Source: Promethearchaeota archaeon (GTDB taxonomy: Archaea > Asgardarchaeota > Lokiarchaeia > Sigyniarchaeales > SOKP01). From it: DNA of 21,715 nucleotides. The stretch is from positions 22,931 through 44,645 of the forward strand of contig JBHLNT010000017.1 in the NCBI GenBank assembly GCA_048941265.1, in the 5' to 3' direction. The position numbers and the translations under genes were made by a program. A model generated the notes under the pieces. That model made no database searches, had not been told where the DNA came from, and worked only from the letters and a program-made list of their open reading frames with translations. Each line of letters opens with the position of its first letter. The stretch's first letter is position 1. Below, piece by piece: positions 9,424-21,334 of the stretch.

Positions 9424-10374
9424 ATGGAAGACGTACGAGCGATATTTAATAATATGGCGAAAGAATATGACGATTTATCAGACTTATGGTACTCATGGCT
9501 TTTTTCACGACTTCATTATTTTATAGTGAATAAAATTATTCATAGAGATACTAAGAAGAAGGTATTAGATATTGGATGTGGAACGGGATTTCAATCATAT
9601 CTTTATTCTGCTGCGGGTTTTGATGTAATTGGGATAGACATTGCGAAAGATTTAATTGAAATTGCTAAAAGAAAAGAACCGATTTTTAATCCTGAGAGAA
9701 TTGAATTATTCCCGGAATACTATGACTATGTAATACGATATAATCAAAAAATAAGAAATATTCTCAAAAAAAAAGTTGGAAAAATTAAGTATTTACCTCC
9801 TAAATTTTATTTTGGTGATGCCCAGAATATAGCTTATGGTGATAACAATTTTGATCATATCAATTGTTGCGGTAGTACTTTAAGTTTTGTCCCAAAACAC
9901 AAAAAAGCAATAGCAGAGATGGCTAGAGTCTTAAAACCAGGAGGAACTTTTCTTATTGAAGTAGATCATAAATGGAGTTTTAATTTTTTATGGTATATTT
10001 TAGATCCTTTAGTTCGAGGAAAATTCCAATTTAATGAAAGTATAAGAGAAGGATTAAGATTTTTAGCTAAAAAATTTACGCGTAATATTTGGATTAATTT
10101 TCCTTTCGGTGAATACGATAAACCTGTAAATATGAATTTAAAACTATTTACAACTTTTTCATTAAAAAGAGACTTAATGAAATATGGATTGAAAGTAGAA
10201 AAGAAATTTTCAATCCATGCTATTACAAATTTAATTCCTTGTACCTTTCTTGATAGCCTAAAGCCTTCCAAAAAATTGGTGTTTCTATTTAAAATTTTAG
10301 CAAAAGTAGAAGAAAAACTTCCGTTCTATTTACCAGGATCTAGTCTAGTCCTATATGGTAAAAAATTAAAATAA
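9424..10374 (+). CDS. Class I SAM-dependent methyltransferase
   Basis: VLDIGCGTG, GIDIA, GDAQ, EMARVLKPGG. Carries a ~45 aa insertion between motifs II and III. Confidence 0.9.
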   Translation: MEDVRAIFNNMAKEYDDLSDLWYSWLFSRLHYFIVNKIIHRDTKKKVLDIGCGTGFQSYLYSAAGFDVIGIDIAKDLIEIAKRKEPIFNPERIELFPEYYDYVIRYNQKIRNILKKKVGKIKYLPPKFYFGDAQNIAYGDNNFDHINCCGSTLSFVPKHKKAIAEMARVLKPGGTFLIEVDHKWSFNFLWYILDPLVRGKFQFNESIREGLRFLAKKFTRNIWINFPFGEYDKPVNMNLKLFTTFSLKRDLMKYGLKVEKKFSIHAITNLIPCTFLDSLKPSKKLVFLFKILAKVEEKLPFYLPGSSLVLYGKKLK

Positions 10375-10437: not shown

Positions 10438-11427
10438 TTATATAAATTTCAATCTCTGTAATAAACCTGTAACCAATATAGGTAAAGCTATAGTGGCATC
10501 ACACCAAATACTCACATAATCTGAATCTAAAGAATACTTTCCCCACGATTTAGATTCAGAAATAGTACAACCAGAAAGTCCCCCATCATATTCAGTAGCA
10601 GTATGGATCCTAACTGAATAATTATAACCCATTGTTTCTATATTATCTATCTGGTCAAGTAAGGGAAAAATTTGTTGAGCCCAGTTCCTAGGAACACCTC
10701 CTCCTATCACAATAGTCCCATATTTCTCAGAATTTTTAATCAATTCTCCAAAATTTAATACATCCTTAAGAATATCAAATTGAAAATCATACCCTTCTCT
10801 TTTTGAATATTTTATCAGATTTAGGGCTAATTCAGAGTCAGAAAAAGCGGGAACATAAATAGGGATATTATTTTCAGCAGCAACCGATATAATACTCCTT
10901 TTTTTTATTTTTTCTCCAAGAATTTTTAAAAATTCTGAGGGTGTCAAGTGAATATTTTTAGACTTAAATGTGTCTTGAATTATTTTAAATAATGCCACCT
11001 CAGCTGATTGGTAGTTTTCTTCTGGAAGAAATACATCATAAATTCTATTTATACGATATTCGAATAATTCATTATCATCCACATAAGGACTCCCTATAAA
11101 ATGACCTTTATCAGCAAAAATATCCACAATATCATGTATAATATTTGCTCCTGTAGAAACTAAAACATCTATCAATTTATACTCCATTAAAACGCAAATA
11201 AGGTCTCCCATCCCAGCTGGAACCATAGCCCCACTTAATGTTAAAACTGTTAAACATGTTTCATCCGTAACCATTTTTTCCAAAATTTCAAGGGCCTGTC
11301 CTAAATTGCGACCTTGAAATCCGCAATATCTTAGTGATGATAAAAGATCATTGATATTAGAAACTTTTTTTACATCATAAGGTCGAATTTTTTTTAATAA
11401 ATAATTTTCTTTAGTATGATGTTCCAT
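10438..11427 (-). CDS. Deoxyhypusine synthase family protein
   Basis: GFQG, LSGAMVPAGM, STGAN..HD, RIYDV, GGGVPRN, DGGLSGC, ESKSWGK (catalytic Lys), CDATIALP. Confidence 0.93.
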   Translation of the reverse strand: MEHHTKENYLLKKIRPYDVKKVSNINDLLSSLRYCGFQGRNLGQALEILEKMVTDETCLTVLTLSGAMVPAGMGDLICVLMEYKLIDVLVSTGANIIHDIVDIFADKGHFIGSPYVDDNELFEYRINRIYDVFLPEENYQSAEVALFKIIQDTFKSKNIHLTPSEFLKILGEKIKKRSIISVAAENNIPIYVPAFSDSELALNLIKYSKREGYDFQFDILKDVLNFGELIKNSEKYGTIVIGGGVPRNWAQQIFPLLDQIDNIETMGYNYSVRIHTATEYDGGLSGCTISESKSWGKYSLDSDYVSIWCDATIALPILVTGLLQRLKFI

Positions 11428-11445
11428 ATATAATAAAATACTTTA

Positions 11446-11478
11446 AATATTATTAATCTTATTTATATTAATAATATT
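11446..11478. promoter_or_regulatory. 12-bp perfect inverted repeat in the divergent DHS/pdaD promoter region
   Basis: aatattattaat (11446-11457), 9 nt spacer, attaataatatt (11467-11478). A/T-only, so significance is limited. Confidence 0.3.
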
Positions 11479-11502
11479 AATTAACTTATACATTACCGAA
11501 TT

Positions 11503-11556
11503 ATATCTTTAGTCCCAAACGCAGTGTTTTTCACTAAGATTAGGGATTTTAATAAT
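11503..11556 (+). pseudogene. Degenerate 18-codon relic of the pdaD 5' end
   Basis: Reads ISLVPNAVFFTKIRDFNN against MSLVPKAVFFTKGKGFHK of the gene starting 73 bp downstream. Confidence 0.75.
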
Positions 11557-11575
11557 ATTAAATTGGTGATAAATT

Positions 11576-12124
11576 ATGTCACTTGTCCCAAAAGCAGTAT
11601 TTTTTACTAAAGGTAAGGGCTTTCATAAGTCTAAGTTAGGCTCTTTCGAACAAGCTTTACGAGATGCTCGCATCGAAATGTATAACTTGGTACAAGTAAG
11701 CTCCATATTACCTCCGTATTGTATTGAGATTCCTAAGGAAGATGGGTTTGCTCAACTAGGTCCGGGTCAGATTGTGTTTGCAGTTATGAGTCGTGTTTCA
11801 AGTGATGAGTATAATCGATTAATTGCTGCATCAGTAGGAGTGGCCAAACCAGCTGATAAGAGAGCATACGGATATTTAAGCGAGCATCATGCTTTTGGTG
11901 TAAAACCTGAAAATGCAGGGGATTTTGCGGAAGATTTAGCGGCAGAAATGTTAGCTACAACGTTAGGTGTTGATTTTGATCCCAATACGAATTATGATGA
12001 GCGAAAGGAAATTTATAAAATGAATGGAAAAATCGTTGAAACTAAAAATATTACAGAATCCGCTACTGTGAAAGAAGAGGGCGAATGGCTTACAGTTTTA
12101 GCTGCAGCAATTTTTATTGTTTAA
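11576..12124 (+). CDS. pdaD: Pyruvoyl-dependent arginine decarboxylase
   Basis: SFEQALRDA, NLVQVSSILP (Ser-Ser autocleavage site), GYLSEHH, AEDLAAEMLA. ggtga RBS upstream. Confidence 0.92.
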   Translation: MSLVPKAVFFTKGKGFHKSKLGSFEQALRDARIEMYNLVQVSSILPPYCIEIPKEDGFAQLGPGQIVFAVMSRVSSDEYNRLIAASVGVAKPADKRAYGYLSEHHAFGVKPENAGDFAEDLAAEMLATTLGVDFDPNTNYDERKEIYKMNGKIVETKNITESATVKEEGEWLTVLAAAIFIV

Positions 12125-12307
12125 TTATGATTTGGTTTTTTTAAATCTTTTTTTAATAATTGATAATTTGTAGAAGTTATAAATAGCATCGCAAAGAATT
12201 TGCTATAAATCATAGAAATGTTTAAATAAAATATTTGTTATATAATAAAATTGATATAACCTATTATTAAATAATATAATTAAATCTCAGAATAAGGAGG
12301 TATGGAA

Positions 12308-12520
12308 ATGATCATTGATGAAATTGAAGGTCCTAAAAAGGGAAAAAAAGGGACTGATGATGACGATGATAATGACGATTGGGATGACGATGATGATAAT
12401 TGGGAAGATTATGATGATGAAGAATGGGATAACGATGGAGATTACGAAGATGAGTGGGATGGAGATGCAAAAGATGATTATGATGAATATGAAACTTCAG
12501 AATCTTATGATGACTATTAG
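12308..12520 (+). CDS. Small hyper-acidic, Trp/Tyr-studded protein with N-terminal KKGKKG motif, function unknown
   Basis: Strong AAGGAGGT RBS ending at 12301, whose spacing fits ATG 12308 better than 12302. 38 of 72 residues are D/E counting from 12302. GAY codon periodicity supports this frame. Confidence 0.75.
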   Translation: MIIDEIEGPKKGKKGTDDDDDNDDWDDDDDNWEDYDDEEWDNDGDYEDEWDGDAKDDYDEYETSESYDDY

Positions 12521-12690
12521 AGACTTTCAATAAACATAAACTAGAATAAATCTCATTTGATTAATTTTGAAAAAAAAAATTTTTTTTAAAAACTCGTTTT
12601 ATCCTTTAAAATTGAATTTATAAATAATATAGCAATTTATTACCCATACATTAAATAATATTTATAAAAAATATTGATTTCAATTAAAAG

Positions 12691-18047: not shown

Positions 18048-18572
18048 ATTTCGCCAGATTATACTTTCAAAATCAGTGTTTTTGGAGATTCGGGGGTAGG
18101 GAAAACTTCTATGATTGTACGTTATCTCACTGACCAATTTGATTTAGAAATTGGAGAAACTATGGGAGTTGATATTAGGATTAAAAAGCTCATTATAAAT
18201 GATACTAATATAACATTACAAATCTGGGACTTTGTAGGCGAGAATAGATTCAGAATCATGTTTCCTAGTTATTCGCGTGGCTCATCAGGAGGGATTTTCA
18301 TGTACGACATTACTAATAAAATTAGTTTGAACAATTTGAACGAATGGCTCAATATTTTTAAAAACATTAATCCTCAGAGTCCTGCCATCATGGTTGGAGG
18401 AAAATCCGATCTTAAGGATATGAGAACTGTTTCAACCGAAGAAGCTATAAGCATATCAAAATCCAATGATTTTTACGATTATCTTGAATGCTCTGCTAAA
18501 ACGGGTGAGAATATTGAAATAATTTTCAGCAAACTACTTGAAAAAATTATGGAGAATGCCGGCTTTTTATAA
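18048..18572 (+). CDS. Rab-like small GTPase (Ras superfamily); true N-terminus lies upstream of 18111
   Basis: In-frame upstream extension SPDYTFKISVFGDSGVGKTS contains G1. Also G2 TMGVD, G3 WDFVGE, RF, G4 GKSD, G5 CSAK. No C-terminal Cys. Start at ATT 18048 is inferred. Confidence 0.88.
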   Translation: MSPDYTFKISVFGDSGVGKTSMIVRYLTDQFDLEIGETMGVDIRIKKLIINDTNITLQIWDFVGENRFRIMFPSYSRGSSGGIFMYDITNKISLNNLNEWLNIFKNINPQSPAIMVGGKSDLKDMRTVSTEEAISISKSNDFYDYLECSAKTGENIEIIFSKLLEKIMENAGFL

Positions 18573-19972: not shown

Positions 19973-21334
19973 TTACATTTCTTCTCGTATTTTAAGGATT
20001 TTCTTCTTTAATTTTTTAATCCGAGAGTCAGAACCATCATATATTAGAAAGCCTTCAAGAATTTTCAATGCCTTTTGATAACAATATATAGCATTTATAT
20101 AATCATTATTTTTTTCTGCATTTTCCCCTGTTTCAAGAGCAAAATCTAATTCTACCTGCTTAGCTTTTTTCTTGGTTTCAAAGATCATTCTTGAAATCTT
20201 ATTGATATCATCCTTTAAACTAAATTTTTTCGCAACAATGAGTGCTTTATTATATTCCTTTCGGGTGATATCAAACGTTGAAGATTTTTCTGCTGTTTTC
20301 CCTCTTTTTATAAGATTTTTAATTAATTGTTTTGCGCCATCATTGTTTAAATTCTCCATCTGTCCTTCAAGTTCGTTTATATCATCATCATTAATGATTA
20401 TCGATGAGATAGGTTTAATTTTTATCGCACGTTTATGATTTGCTTCTTTATTTAATTCAAGGTTAGAAACAACGGTTTCTAACTTCATAGGAACGATAAT
20501 ACTTTTATTTAAAAGGTTATAAATTCCATGAAGTATAACTTTAGCATCTATATTTACAATCTTTTTGAGTTTCTCTAGCAGAGTATTAATATAGAAAAAG
20601 GATTTTGCACTCAGAGTATCTTTTGCAAGTTTTATTATCACACTCTGAATTGGATCATCATTTATTTCTTCTAAAAATTCTGGAGGAATTGCATATGCCA
20701 ATGTCATAGGAAAAACGAAATTAATATTGAATGAGCCAATGATAAACTCAACCATATGTTTGGAACTAAAAGCCCCAGTATTTTGATATATAATTAGTTG
20801 TTCTTTGAAACGGTTTTCAAATTCAGATAAAAAATGTGAGACAAGATTTTTCATATGTTCAGACGAGTTATGGTCAAGTATCATAATTAACCTTATATAA
20901 TCTCCGTTCTTTAGCAATATATTGAATTTTTTATATTGTAATTCATAAAAAGGGTTTTCTAAAACTAAACCTGAATCTGTATTCAGCCCTTTGCTCGATT
21001 CTGAAAAAGTTATGTTTGCCTGAATGAATCCACTCAACAGCTCAACTTCTATGTCAACAGCGGAAACAGGATAATTGAGGAGCGCAATACCTGATTCTTT
21101 ATCCATTAGAATGATATGCTTAATATTTAAAACATCGAGGAAAATCTGCCATATTCTATTCCGTTCCGCCTGAATTCGTTTCTCATCTACACTTAAAATT
21201 TGCATATCAGAACTAAGTTCAAATCCCATTTTTTTTAATCGATTTGTTACACATTCGTTACAAGATTTAGGAGCTTTAGGACAATTCAGAGTACCACAAT
21301 TGAACCTTAACCCATTTATGATAAATATTGCCAT
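19973..21334 (-). CDS. Soluble multidomain protein: N-terminal Cys4 cluster, longin-like domain, possible winged helix, C-terminal TPR/MIT-like helices
   Basis: CGTLNCPKAPKSCNEC; IILMDKESGIALL, ELLSGFIQANITFS, YKKFNILLKNGDYIRLIMIL, FLSEFENRF; two GxxAEK...YxKAL helical hairpins. Confidence 0.68.
   Translation of the reverse strand: MAIFIINGLRFNCGTLNCPKAPKSCNECVTNRLKKMGFELSSDMQILSVDEKRIQAERNRIWQIFLDVLNIKHIILMDKESGIALLNYPVSAVDIEVELLSGFIQANITFSESSKGLNTDSGLVLENPFYELQYKKFNILLKNGDYIRLIMILDHNSSEHMKNLVSHFLSEFENRFKEQLIIYQNTGAFSSKHMVEFIIGSFNINFVFPMTLAYAIPPEFLEEINDDPIQSVIIKLAKDTLSAKSFFYINTLLEKLKKIVNIDAKVILHGIYNLLNKSIIVPMKLETVVSNLELNKEANHKRAIKIKPISSIIINDDDINELEGQMENLNNDGAKQLIKNLIKRGKTAEKSSTFDITRKEYNKALIVAKKFSLKDDINKISRMIFETKKKAKQVELDFALETGENAEKNNDYINAIYCYQKALKILEGFLIYDGSDSRIKKLKKKILKIREEM

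What the first reader, a model, noticed from the sequence alone, without database searches (positions are those of the whole stretch)
10438..12520. DHS + arginine decarboxylase + hyper-acidic peptide with an eIF5A hypusine-loop-like motif: possible non-eIF5A substrate for deoxyhypusination
Seen: DHS and pdaD share a 148-bp divergent promoter region, and the next gene has a very strong RBS and begins (ME)MIIDEIEGPKKGKKG. This aligns without gaps to human eIF5A 40-52 as I recall it (IVEMSTSKTGKHG versus IDEIEGPKKGKKG), giving I-x-E-[IM]-x3-K-x-G-K*-x-G with 6 of 13 identical. The Lys at codon 12344-12346 falls on hypusine K50. Established: PdaD makes agmatine, DHS transfers an aminobutyl group to that Lys, eIF5A/aIF5A is the only accepted protein substrate, and an agmatine-dependent route has been described in Haloferax. 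Inference: this is a dedicated amine-donor, modifier and substrate (or decoy/inhibitor) cassette, RiPP-like in layout. Caveats: the motif is short and K/G-rich, the conserved His is replaced by Lys, and canonical DHS needs more of the eIF5A fold.
Basis: partly seen in the sequence, partly recalled or inferred. Interest (0 to 1): 0.8.

Follow-up and report, generated by a model that had tools for sequence, protein, structure and literature searches.

The report
Second DHS beside arginine decarboxylase
An Asgard archaeon carries, besides its housekeeping hypusine enzyme, a second deoxyhypusine-synthase-like gene paired with arginine decarboxylase that most likely makes a polyamine from agmatine, and a small very acidic protein of unknown role travels with this pair.

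Summary
The three genes are real. They are a DHS-family gene (10438-11427, minus strand), pdaD (11576-12124) and a 72-aa hyperacidic ORF (12302-12520).

The genome (Promethearchaeota/Loki-type Asgard) also holds a second DHS directly after an agmatinase gene, plus one aIF5A with a canonical loop.

The window's DHS ("DHS-2") falls in a separate subclade marked by GGGVPRNW. That subclade is shared with many bacteria, which have no IF5A. There it sits beside arginine decarboxylases of two unrelated folds, often with an agmatinase. This is the layout of the SpeY/CdmS pathway: two agmatine give bis-guanidino-homospermidine, then homospermidine.

Best reading: PdaD plus DHS-2 is a polyamine module, not a peptide-modifying cassette.

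The acidic ORF is a real, lineage-restricted gene. It lies within 8 kb of DHS-2 in 15 of 50 Asgard loci, whereas other window genes recur in 0-4 loci. Its resemblance to the eIF5A loop is not conserved: KxGKxG occurs in 1 of 15 orthologues, and 6-of-13 matches occur about 85 times in the proteome. Only a basic GP-K-K-x-K head is shared. Its function is unresolved.

The co-fold gave no answer.

The parts
10438..11427 (-). DHS-2: accessory deoxyhypusine-synthase-family paralogue of the GGGVPRNW subclade, a candidate agmatine-coupling (SpeY/CdmS-like) enzyme
   Evidence: Pfam DS 1.1e-89. No NCBIfam equivalog cut-off is reached: best is PRK00805 at 295 against 434, and the SpeY model NF002699 scores 205.5 against 500. 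It is 39% identical to the genome's DHS-1. The SWGK lysine (K297) is conserved. In the tree it sits on the GGGVPRNW side, SH-aLRT 99.
11428..11575 (.). 148-bp divergent intergenic region between dhs2 and pdaD
   Evidence: Coordinates. The divergent arrangement is kept in family f1. It is replaced by a co-directional pdaD->dhs2 order in families f2 and f4.
11576..12124 (+). PdaD, pyruvoyl-dependent arginine decarboxylase; the only copy found in the genome
   Evidence: PvlArgDC 1.5e-57. TIGR00286 scores 125 bits against a cut-off of 106.95. There is a single match in G000. It is adjacent to DHS-2 in 44 of 50 distinct Asgard loci.
12205..12301 (+). Conserved upstream region of the acidic ORF, including an AT-rich promoter-like stretch and the AAGGAGGT ribosome-binding site
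   Evidence: Nearly identical in the window, G001 and G003. No Rfam match. The fold is no better than shuffles, z = 0.40.
12302..12520 (+). Small hyperacidic protein (72 aa, or 70 aa from the ATG at 12308): basic GPKKGKKG head, Asp/Glu/Trp/Tyr body, aromatic C-end
   Evidence: It is one of only 3 ORFs of 35-200 aa with at least 40% Asp+Glu in the 5.0-Mb genome. Orthologues with Shine-Dalgarno-like sites lie near DHS-2 in 15 of 50 Asgard loci. It has no Pfam or NCBIfam family.
9424..10374 (+). SAM-dependent methyltransferase convergent with dhs2; a possible accessory member of the neighbourhood
   Evidence: Methyltransf_11/25. It is kept next to DHS-2 in 4 of 50 other loci (L034, L039, L046, L095), more than any other window gene except pdaD and the acidic ORF.

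Best explanation
PdaD and DHS-2 form a two-gene polyamine module.

1. PdaD decarboxylates arginine to agmatine.
2. DHS-2 is an NAD-dependent aminobutyl/guanidinobutyl transferase of the DHS fold. Inferred: it couples two agmatine molecules to N1,N9-bis(guanidino)homospermidine, as bacterial SpeY/CdmS does.
3. Inferred: a ureohydrolase then gives homospermidine. The agmatinase homologue encoded beside DHS-1 is the obvious candidate.

aIF5A is served by the other paralogue, DHS-1, which sits in a conserved agmatinase->dhs1 operon.

The small acidic ORF is a real protein-coding gene restricted to Loki-type Asgard archaea and genetically linked to the module. Its likeness to the eIF5A loop is coincidental. 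Its most likely role, held with low confidence, is a disordered polyanion that binds, buffers or regulates the polycationic products or enzymes of the module, rather than a hypusination substrate.

Shown here: gene identities, the paralogy, clade membership and the linkage. Inferred: the chemistry of DHS-2, the choice of ureohydrolase and the role of the acidic protein.
For: Paralogy:
- G000 has two DHS genes.
- DHS-1 directly follows an arginase-family/agmatinase gene.
- That operon is present in 10 of 12 related DHS-1 loci examined, including G012 and G022 (98-100% complete), which lack both pdaD and DHS-2.
- DHS-1-type hits occur in 39 (+1 partial) of 41 genomes. DHS-2-type hits occur in 29 of 41.
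- There is one aIF5A with a canonical loop.

Clade:
- A scan with the clade motif [LIV]GGGVPRNW found 597 relatives among species-representative genomes.
- Of the best 80, 22 are Asgard and 58 are not. The 58 are mostly bacteria (Planctomycetota, Chlorobiota, Ignavibacteria, Kiritimatiellae, Desulfo- groups, Acidobacteriaceae, Myxococcota, CPR), plus Thermoplasmata, DPANN and Methanosarcinales.
- The tree splits the GGGVPRNW side (80 rows) from DHS-1 and canonical copies (19 rows) with SH-aLRT 99.
- All 5 of 5 other archaea with a GGGVPRNW copy also have a higher-scoring canonical DHS.

Context:
- pdaD is adjacent in 44 of 50 distinct Asgard loci and in 22 of 58 non-Asgard loci.
- An agmatinase homologue is adjacent in 7 of those 58, as pdaD-agmatinase-dhs operons.
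- The 3 nearest bacterial loci examined (L098, L101, L104) have a SpeA-type PLP arginine decarboxylase immediately upstream. An Acidobacteriaceae locus has a CN-hydrolase.

Literature:
- CdmS of T. thermophilus couples two agmatines (PMC10981699: abstract, section 9).
- Diverse bacterial SpeY enzymes do the same beside ADCs of three folds, including a pyruvoyl ADC cluster in Caldilinea (PMC13625781: abstract, passages, Discussion).
- speY clusters have been noted in other archaea (PMC10407285: passages).

Genome logic: no AdoMetDC and no spermidine synthase above cut-off were found in G000, which is 91% complete.

Active-site positions: at the two positions where CdmS differs from human DHS (Asp243 and Asp316), DHS-2 aligns Leu202 and Leu284.

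Acidic ORF:
- It is single per genome in 9 of the 10 genomes matched by HMM. G006 has a second, weak match about 10 kb away on the same contig.
- It is linked in 15 of 50 loci in varying positions, against 0-4 loci for other window genes.
Against: - DHS-2 and the bacterial members of its subclade tested (10 of 10) do not reach the NCBIfam SpeY model or any other equivalog. Orthology to an assayed SpeY is therefore not shown.
- I could not place any experimentally tested SpeY on my tree.
- The Leu/Leu pocket positions are shared with DHS-1, so they do not separate the two paralogues.
- No ureohydrolase lies next to DHS-2 in the Asgard loci.
- The 80 loci were collected with the clade motif itself, so the motif count on the tree is partly by construction.
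- Some archaea might use a GGGVPRNW enzyme on aIF5A with agmatine.
- Nothing here bears directly on what the acidic protein does. Bacteria run the module without it (0 of 58 loci), so it is dispensable for the chemistry.
- In 5 loci it neighbours an unrelated methyltransferase/ATP-grasp gene.
Confidence: 0.62

Rival explanations
1. The acidic protein is an acceptor substrate, or a pseudo-substrate inhibitor, of DHS-2. One lysine of the GP-K-K-x-K head enters the active-site tunnel and receives a 4-guanidinobutyl or 4-aminobutyl group derived from agmatine.
For: - There is conserved linkage of the acidic ORF to DHS-2/pdaD in 15 of 50 Asgard loci, in changing positions.
- The family was found only in genomes that also have DHS-2: 11 of 29 with it (10 by HMM, plus G017 by composition scan), against 0 of 12 without it. 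Related genomes are not independent.
- Lysines at P+2 and P+4 of the head are kept in most of the 9 closest members.
- A lysine side chain resembles the aminobutyl part of agmatine (inference).
Against: - KxGKxG is present in only 1 of 15 linked orthologues.
- Two members (L077, L094) lack the basic head altogether.
- There is no IF5A-like domain.
- The DHS-2 subclade works in bacteria without any such ORF.
- From established knowledge, DHS recognises a folded IF5A N-domain rather than a short loop.
Confidence: 0.08
2. DHS-2 is also, or instead, an aIF5A-modifying enzyme. It could be an agmatine-dependent isoform, or a subunit that forms hetero-tetramers with DHS-1, as trypanosomatid DHS paralogues do.
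For: - The catalytic lysine and most family-invariant residues are retained.
- An agmatine-linked route to deoxyhypusine has been proposed in Haloferax (PMC5178350; only the search listing and the start of the abstract were seen).
- A trypanosomatid heterotetramer precedent exists (PMC3663545; listing only).
- No spermidine pathway was found in G000.
Against: - DHS-2 is missing from 12 of 41 related genomes, including two that are 98-100% complete and keep DHS-1.
- Its subclade is abundant in bacteria, which have no IF5A.
- Every other archaeon examined with such a copy also has a canonical DHS (5 of 5).
Confidence: 0.12
3. The acidic protein has nothing to do with polyamines. It could be a substrate or carrier for the methyltransferase/ATP-grasp ligase seen beside it in other genera, or a general polyanion such as a DNA mimic or a chaperone of basic proteins. 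It would then lie near dhs2-pdaD by inherited synteny.
For: - In 5 loci an acidic ORF is adjacent to a ~645-aa SAM-methyltransferase plus D-Ala-D-Ala-ligase-type ATP-grasp fusion. In 4 of those 5 (not L047) a PAN-like AAA ATPase follows.
- In G014 and G019 family members lie on contigs other than DHS-2's.
- The family is confined to one archaeal family (f1) in the 41 genomes searched.
Against: - In the window's genus the ORF is next to pdaD or dhs2 in 7 of 7 genomes that have DHS-2. No ATP-grasp gene lies within the flanks, except at 8 kb in G006.
- The other genes of the window are shared with only 0-4 of the 50 loci, so plain synteny decay should have separated the ORF too.
Confidence: 0.18

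Closest known systems
SpeY / CdmS pathway (arginine decarboxylase -> agmatine; DHS homologue couples two agmatines to bis(guanidino)homospermidine; agmatinase-like ureohydrolase -> homospermidine), Kobayashi et al. 2024 and Li et al. 2026
   Same: A DHS-fold enzyme with the catalytic lysine sits immediately beside an arginine decarboxylase. Its subclade occurs in bacteria lacking IF5A, in pdaD-agmatinase-dhs or speA-dhs operons. An agmatinase homologue is present in the genome.
   Different: It does not reach the NCBIfam SpeY model (205.5 against 500). No ureohydrolase is adjacent. It lives in an Asgard archaeon alongside a housekeeping DHS. A hyperacidic small ORF accompanies it, and none of the 58 non-Asgard loci has one.
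Canonical archaeal/eukaryotic deoxyhypusine synthase acting on IF5A
   Same: Same Pfam family, same SWGK catalytic lysine and the same NAD-binding GGG motif region.
   Different: DHS-2 belongs to a separate subclade (SH-aLRT 99). It scores below every DHS equivalog cut-off, is dispensable in 12 of 41 relatives, and is always a second copy in the archaea examined.
Haloferax volcanii aIF5A-agmatinase-DHS cluster and proposed agmatine-dependent deoxyhypusine route (PMC5178350; listing and abstract start only)
   Same: DHS-1 of this genome sits directly after an agmatinase homologue. No spermidine pathway was found. The argS-agmatinase-DHS trio in Lokiarchaeota was already noted in print (PMC6737245, one passage).
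   Different: That comparison concerns DHS-1, not the window's gene. aIF5A is on another contig here.
Plant DHS-derived homospermidine synthase (duplicated DHS that lost eIF5A binding; cited in PMC13625781)
   Same: A DHS duplicate recruited to polyamine synthesis while the original copy keeps serving IF5A.
   Different: The plant enzyme uses spermidine plus putrescine and arose by recent duplication. DHS-2 belongs to an old, horizontally spread prokaryotic subclade tied to agmatine supply.
LysW-type amino-group carrier proteins and other small hyperacidic proteins (recalled, not tested by any search)
   Same: A small, very acidic, largely disordered protein encoded within a biosynthetic gene neighbourhood, in some loci beside an ATP-grasp ligase.
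   Different: No zinc-ribbon head and no C-terminal Glu. No Pfam or NCBIfam match of any kind. No evidence of ligation.

Membership tests
Deoxyhypusine synthase family (Pfam PF01916) | Full-length match to the DS domain | tested here: met
   301 bits, residues 27-320 against profile positions 1-286 of 288
Deoxyhypusine synthase family (Pfam PF01916) | Catalytic lysine in the SWGK motif (human Lys329, CdmS Lys299 per PMC10981699 section 9) | tested here: met
   K297 aligns with the SWGK lysine of solved DHS structures. It is kept in at least 90% of the 63 aligned relatives.
IF5A-modifying deoxyhypusine synthase (NCBIfam equivalogs TIGR00321, NF002006, NF002630 and others) | Score above a curated equivalog cut-off | tested here: not met
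   Best scores are 295.4 against 434, 268.5 against 304.25 and 253.4 against 364. DHS-1 comes close, at 352.6 against 364.
IF5A-modifying deoxyhypusine synthase | Present wherever aIF5A is present (essential partner) | tested here: not met
   No DHS-2-type gene was found in 12 of 41 related genomes, including G012 and G022 at 98-100% completeness. DHS-1-type is present in 39 (+1 partial) of 41.
[quoted passage not shown] | Score above the NCBIfam NF002699 cut-off | tested here: not met
   205.5 against 500. Ten bacterial and archaeal members of the same subclade also fail it.
SpeY / CdmS | Genomic coupling to an arginine decarboxylase | tested here: met
   pdaD is adjacent in 44 of 50 Asgard loci and in 22 of 58 non-Asgard loci. 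A SpeA-type ADC is upstream in 3 of 3 nearest bacterial loci examined.
SpeY / CdmS | Partner ureohydrolase or iminohydrolase | tested here: inconclusive
   An agmatinase homologue exists in G000 but lies beside DHS-1 on another contig. It is adjacent in 7 of 58 non-Asgard loci of the subclade.
SpeY / CdmS | Clade members function in organisms without IF5A | tested here: met
   Most of the 58 non-Asgard relatives are bacteria by record title. That bacteria lack IF5A is established knowledge.
SpeY / CdmS | Forms bis(guanidino)homospermidine from agmatine | not testable with these tools
   This needs expression and LC-MS, as in PMC13625781.
Hypusination substrate (IF5A-like) | IF5A N-terminal domain carrying the loop | tested here: not met
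   The acidic ORF has no Pfam family at E up to 10. The genome's real aIF5A matches IF5A-like_N.
Hypusination substrate (IF5A-like) | Conserved K-x-G-K-x-G loop motif | tested here: not met
   Present in 1 of 15 linked orthologues.
Pyruvoyl-dependent arginine decarboxylase (PdaD) | Family match above cut-off | tested here: met
   PvlArgDC at 194.5 bits. TIGR00286 at 125 against 106.95, and NF009064 at 205.5 against 207, just under. A Ser-Ser pair at residues 42-43 is present. That this is the self-cleavage site is recalled, not tested.
DSS1/Sem1-type acidic proteins | Match to the Pfam DSS1_SEM1 model | tested here: not met
   No such match for any of 9 members at E up to 10. The resemblance was recalled from memory only.

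The most novel reading that the evidence does not exclude
The hyperacidic protein is a dedicated partner of the agmatine/DHS-2 module in Loki-type Asgard archaea. It could be a second natural acceptor for a DHS-family enzyme, with a lysine of its basic head guanidinobutylated or aminobutylated. It could instead be a protein-borne carrier or sensor of the polycationic product. Either would be the first protein other than IF5A tied to DHS-family chemistry.
Probability: 0.08. Interest if true: 0.85.

Novelty: new variant of a known kind. Interest (0 to 1): 0.45.

Why it matters
Li et al. 2026 (PMC13625781, Discussion) ask whether archaea encode both agmatine-dependent and spermidine-dependent DHS proteins. 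This Asgard lineage offers a clean pair to test: DHS-1 with an agmatinase and DHS-2 with PdaD, in a genome with no detected spermidine pathway.

The GGGVPRNW subclade is large (597 hits among species representatives). No NCBIfam equivalog reached its cut-off for any of the 11 members tested (DHS-2 plus 10 others), so members are at risk of being annotated as deoxyhypusine synthase. Showing what it makes would correct many annotations.

The linked acidic protein is a small, unannotated, lineage-specific gene. It has unusually conserved flanks, and its tie to polyamine genes is unexplained.

Tried and rejected
- **Co-fold.** DHS-2 (two copies, 63-row alignment) was folded with the acidic protein (15-row alignment). 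The verdict was 'no answer', score 0.02 against a mark of 0.32, and the partner's fold was uncertain. This is neither for nor against binding.
- **RNA evidence.** No RNA holder was listed among the 5 runs found, all DNA metagenomes from 2 studies.
- **Protein atlas for the acidic ORF.** The best score was 0.81, within the range of shuffled controls, so it is uninformative.
- **Profile search of the acidic family.** A search of the 5.8-billion-protein collection returned only 4 hits. Low-complexity words saturate the candidate list.
- **HMM search of relatives.** It missed G017's member although that sequence was in the query alignment, so absences by HMM are weak.
- **DSS1/Sem1 idea.** No Pfam support.
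- **Riboswitch or structured leader upstream of the acidic ORF.** There was no Rfam family (one sub-threshold snoRNA hit, E 0.78), and the fold was no better than shuffles.
- **Pocket residues.** I tried to separate DHS-1 from DHS-2 using the two residues named in PMC10981699. Both paralogues carry Leu at both positions, so they do not discriminate.
- **Naming tree clades through cluster look-up.** Only 3 of 10 clusters carried names.
- **Earlier findings of this scan near the window.** Nothing was shown.
- **Supplementary files.** The supplements of the two SpeY papers were not available. They may list accession numbers that would show whether an assayed SpeY lies in the GGGVPRNW subclade.
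Full report
**What is in the window**

- A 329-aa DHS-family protein on the minus strand (10438-11427; Pfam DS 1.1e-89).
- A 182-aa pyruvoyl-dependent arginine decarboxylase on the plus strand (11576-12124; PvlArgDC 1.5e-57). Its start is 148 bp from the DHS start.
- A 72-aa ORF (12302-12520) behind AAGGAGGT. It begins ME-MIIDEIEGPKKGKKG and is 53% Asp+Glu.

The second ATG at 12308 is better spaced from the ribosome-binding site, and the protein atlas holds the sequence from that residue on.

Names attached to close DHS hits and to related contigs place the organism among Promethearchaeota/Lokiarchaeota-type Asgard archaea. A Ras-family GTPase and an MIT-domain protein elsewhere in the window fit this. 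The assembly has 5.0 Mb in 361 contigs, 30.5% G+C, and is 91% complete.

**The motif**

The ungapped 13-residue comparison gives 6 of 13 identities against this genome's own aIF5A loop as well. This is not rare.
- In ORFs of at least 100 aa of the genome, 85 other 13-mers reach 6 or more identities.
- KxGKxG occurs 35 times in the same set.
- Among the 15 acidic ORFs linked to the DHS paralogue in related genomes, only the window's has KxGKxG.
- The shared features are a basic head (mostly G-P-K-K-x-K), an Asp/Glu body punctuated by Trp, Tyr and Phe, and an aromatic C-end.
- Two members lack the basic head (L077, L094).

**Two DHS paralogues**

The genome has a second DHS on contig C114, 39% identical to the window's.
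- It starts one base after an arginase-family gene that passes the agmatinase equivalog (176.9 against 174.3) and lies downstream of the 3' end of argS.
- This trio was already described for Lokiarchaeota (PMC6737245, one passage).
- The agmatinase->dhs1 pair is present in 10 of 12 related loci examined.
- DHS-1-type genes occur in 39 whole copies plus 1 partial copy among 41 related genomes. DHS-2-type genes occur in 29 of 41.
- G012 and G022 are 98-100% complete. They lack both DHS-2 and pdaD but keep the agmatinase-dhs1 operon.
- There is one aIF5A, on contig C331, with a canonical loop.

DHS-1 is thus the housekeeping enzyme and the window's gene is an accessory paralogue.

**Where DHS-2 belongs**

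- No NCBIfam equivalog is reached: best is PRK00805 at 295 against 434, and the SpeY model NF002699 scores 205.5 against 500. DHS-1 nearly reaches PRK02301, at 352.6 against 364.
- An exhaustive HMMER search of 1.84 billion representatives and a first tree put DHS-2 next to a group containing Desulfohalobiaceae proteins.
- A scan of species-representative genomes with the clade's own conserved stretch, [LIV]GGGVPRNW, found 597 confirmed relatives.
- Of the best 80, 22 are Asgard and 58 are not. The nearest non-Asgard relatives are Chlorobiota, Ignavibacteria, Planctomycetota and Kiritimatiellae, at 43-48% identity. Then come Desulfo- groups, Myxococcota, Acidobacteriaceae, CPR bacteria, Thermoplasmata, DPANN and Methanosarcinales.
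- A maximum-likelihood tree of 99 rows separates this side (80 rows) from DHS-1 and the canonical copies (19 rows) with SH-aLRT 99. Asgard DHS-2 (18 rows, 99) nests with the Planctomycetota, Chlorobiota and Kiritimatiellae sequences (25 rows, 95).
- Caveat: the 80 loci were gathered with the motif, so its near-universality on that side is partly by construction. The split from DHS-1 is not.
- All 5 of 5 other archaea carrying such a copy also have a canonical, higher-scoring DHS.

**Context of the subclade**

- pdaD is adjacent in 44 of 50 distinct Asgard loci. The six exceptions are mostly short flanks, plus one fragmentary pdaD and one genome with pdaD elsewhere.
- The arrangement is divergent in family f1 and co-directional in families f2 and f4.
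- Outside Asgard, a pdaD homologue is adjacent in 22 of 58 loci (17 bacterial, 5 archaeal).
- An agmatinase homologue is adjacent in 7 of those 58, giving pdaD-agmatinase-dhs operons in Desulfonatronovibrio, Desulfohalobiaceae, Thermodesulfobacteriota and a CPR bacterium.
- In the three nearest bacterial loci examined, the gene immediately upstream is a SpeA-type PLP arginine decarboxylase, a different fold. An Acidobacteriaceae locus has a carbon-nitrogen hydrolase.

Arginine decarboxylases of unrelated folds beside the same DHS-like subclade, in organisms without IF5A, point to agmatine as its substrate.

**What is known**

- Kobayashi et al. 2024 showed that the Thermus DHS homologue CdmS couples two agmatines to a diamidino-homospermidine, which a ureohydrolase converts to homospermidine (PMC10981699: abstract and section 9).
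- Li et al. 2026 showed the same for SpeY proteins from diverse bacteria with ADCs of three folds, including a SpeY-SpeB-pyruvoyl-ADC cluster. They ask whether archaea encode both agmatine- and spermidine-dependent DHS proteins (PMC13625781: abstract, passages, Discussion).
- speY clusters in marine group II and DPANN archaea were noted earlier (PMC10407285: passages).
- Two full-text searches ('Asgard' with 'deoxyhypusine'; 'SpeY' with 'archaea' and 'homospermidine') returned nothing on a Loki DHS paralogue or on a linked acidic protein.

**Supporting points**

- G000 shows no AdoMetDC and no spermidine synthase above cut-off, and has a single pdaD.
- CdmS differs from human DHS at two pocket positions, Asp243 and Asp316. 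DHS-2 aligns Leu202 and Leu284 there.
- DHS-1 also has Leu at both positions. This fits agmatine use by both paralogues but does not separate them.

**The acidic ORF**

- It is one of three ORFs of 35-200 aa with at least 40% Asp+Glu in the whole genome.
- Related ORFs with Shine-Dalgarno-like sites lie within the fetched flanks (up to 8 kb) in 15 of 50 distinct Asgard DHS-2 loci. Some are downstream of pdaD, some downstream of dhs2, and some are 4-6 kb away.
- The other genes of the window recur in only 0-4 of those loci.
- In the window's genus, 7 of 7 genomes with DHS-2 have the ORF. The 3 genomes without DHS-2, which are 64-82% complete, show none.
- None of the 58 non-Asgard loci has such an ORF.
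- About 100 nt upstream and about 120 nt downstream are nearly identical between the window, G001 and G003. This is more conserved than the ORF itself. There is no Rfam family and no stable fold.
- The protein has no Pfam or NCBIfam family.

**A complication**

In five loci an acidic ORF neighbours a ~645-aa fusion of a SAM methyltransferase with a D-Ala-D-Ala-ligase-type ATP-grasp domain. In four of these five (not L047) a PAN-like AAA ATPase follows, and pdaD-dhs2 lies in the same locus. G006 has two acidic ORFs, one by dhs2 and one by the fusion. G000 keeps only the last 40 codons of such a fusion, at a contig end. The acidic family may therefore have a partner other than DHS-2.

**Verdict**

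- The cassette is best read as a SpeY-type agmatine-to-homospermidine module in an Asgard archaeon that also has a housekeeping DHS.
- The acidic protein is a real, linked, lineage-specific gene of unresolved role.
- Its being a DHS substrate is not excluded, but nothing found here supports it.

Noticed in passing
L038 3794-5743, L081 1895-3841, L076 9899-11833, L078 3320-5254, L047 14945-16792: A ~645-aa fusion of a SAM methyltransferase and a D-Ala-D-Ala-ligase-type ATP-grasp domain lies next to an acidic small ORF in five Asgard loci. In four of them (not L047) a PAN-like AAA ATPase follows, and pdaD-dhs2 lies in the same locus. G000 has only the last 40 codons of such a gene, at the end of contig C85.
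   Followed up: partly
window 12205-12301 and 12521-12640: The non-coding flanks of the acidic ORF are nearly identical in the window, G001 and G003, and are more conserved than the ORF. There is no Rfam family and no stable predicted fold, so a promoter or protein-binding site is likelier than a structured RNA.
   Followed up: partly
L036, L037, L043 (G015, G019, G010) and L083, L085, L086: There are tandem duplicates of DHS-2 (57-66% identical to the window's) directly downstream of the first copy. Hetero-oligomers are conceivable.
   Followed up: no
G012:C207:4888-5151: An 88-aa DHS-2-like fragment with an in-frame TAG sits in a 98%-complete genome that lacks pdaD. It looks like a remnant of a lost module.
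   Followed up: no
window 9424-10374: A SAM methyltransferase convergent with dhs2 is kept beside DHS-2 in four other loci (L034, L039, L046, L095). It is only 21% identical, over 157 aligned residues (E 3e-06), to the methyltransferase half of the fusion protein.
   Followed up: partly
window 18111-18572 and 19973-21334: A Ras-family small GTPase (153 aa) and a 453-aa protein with a weak C-terminal MIT-domain match. These are eukaryote-like signature proteins typical of Asgard archaea.
   Followed up: no
G000 contig C255 2090-2278 (-): Another small ORF in the genome has a Cys-rich, zinc-ribbon-like head and a poly-Asp tail with Trp and Tyr. It is not near any DHS.
   Followed up: no
L092 5647-5909: In one Promethearchaeota locus, pdaD next to DHS-2 appears only as two short pieces (37 and 57 aa). 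It may be a degraded copy.
   Followed up: no
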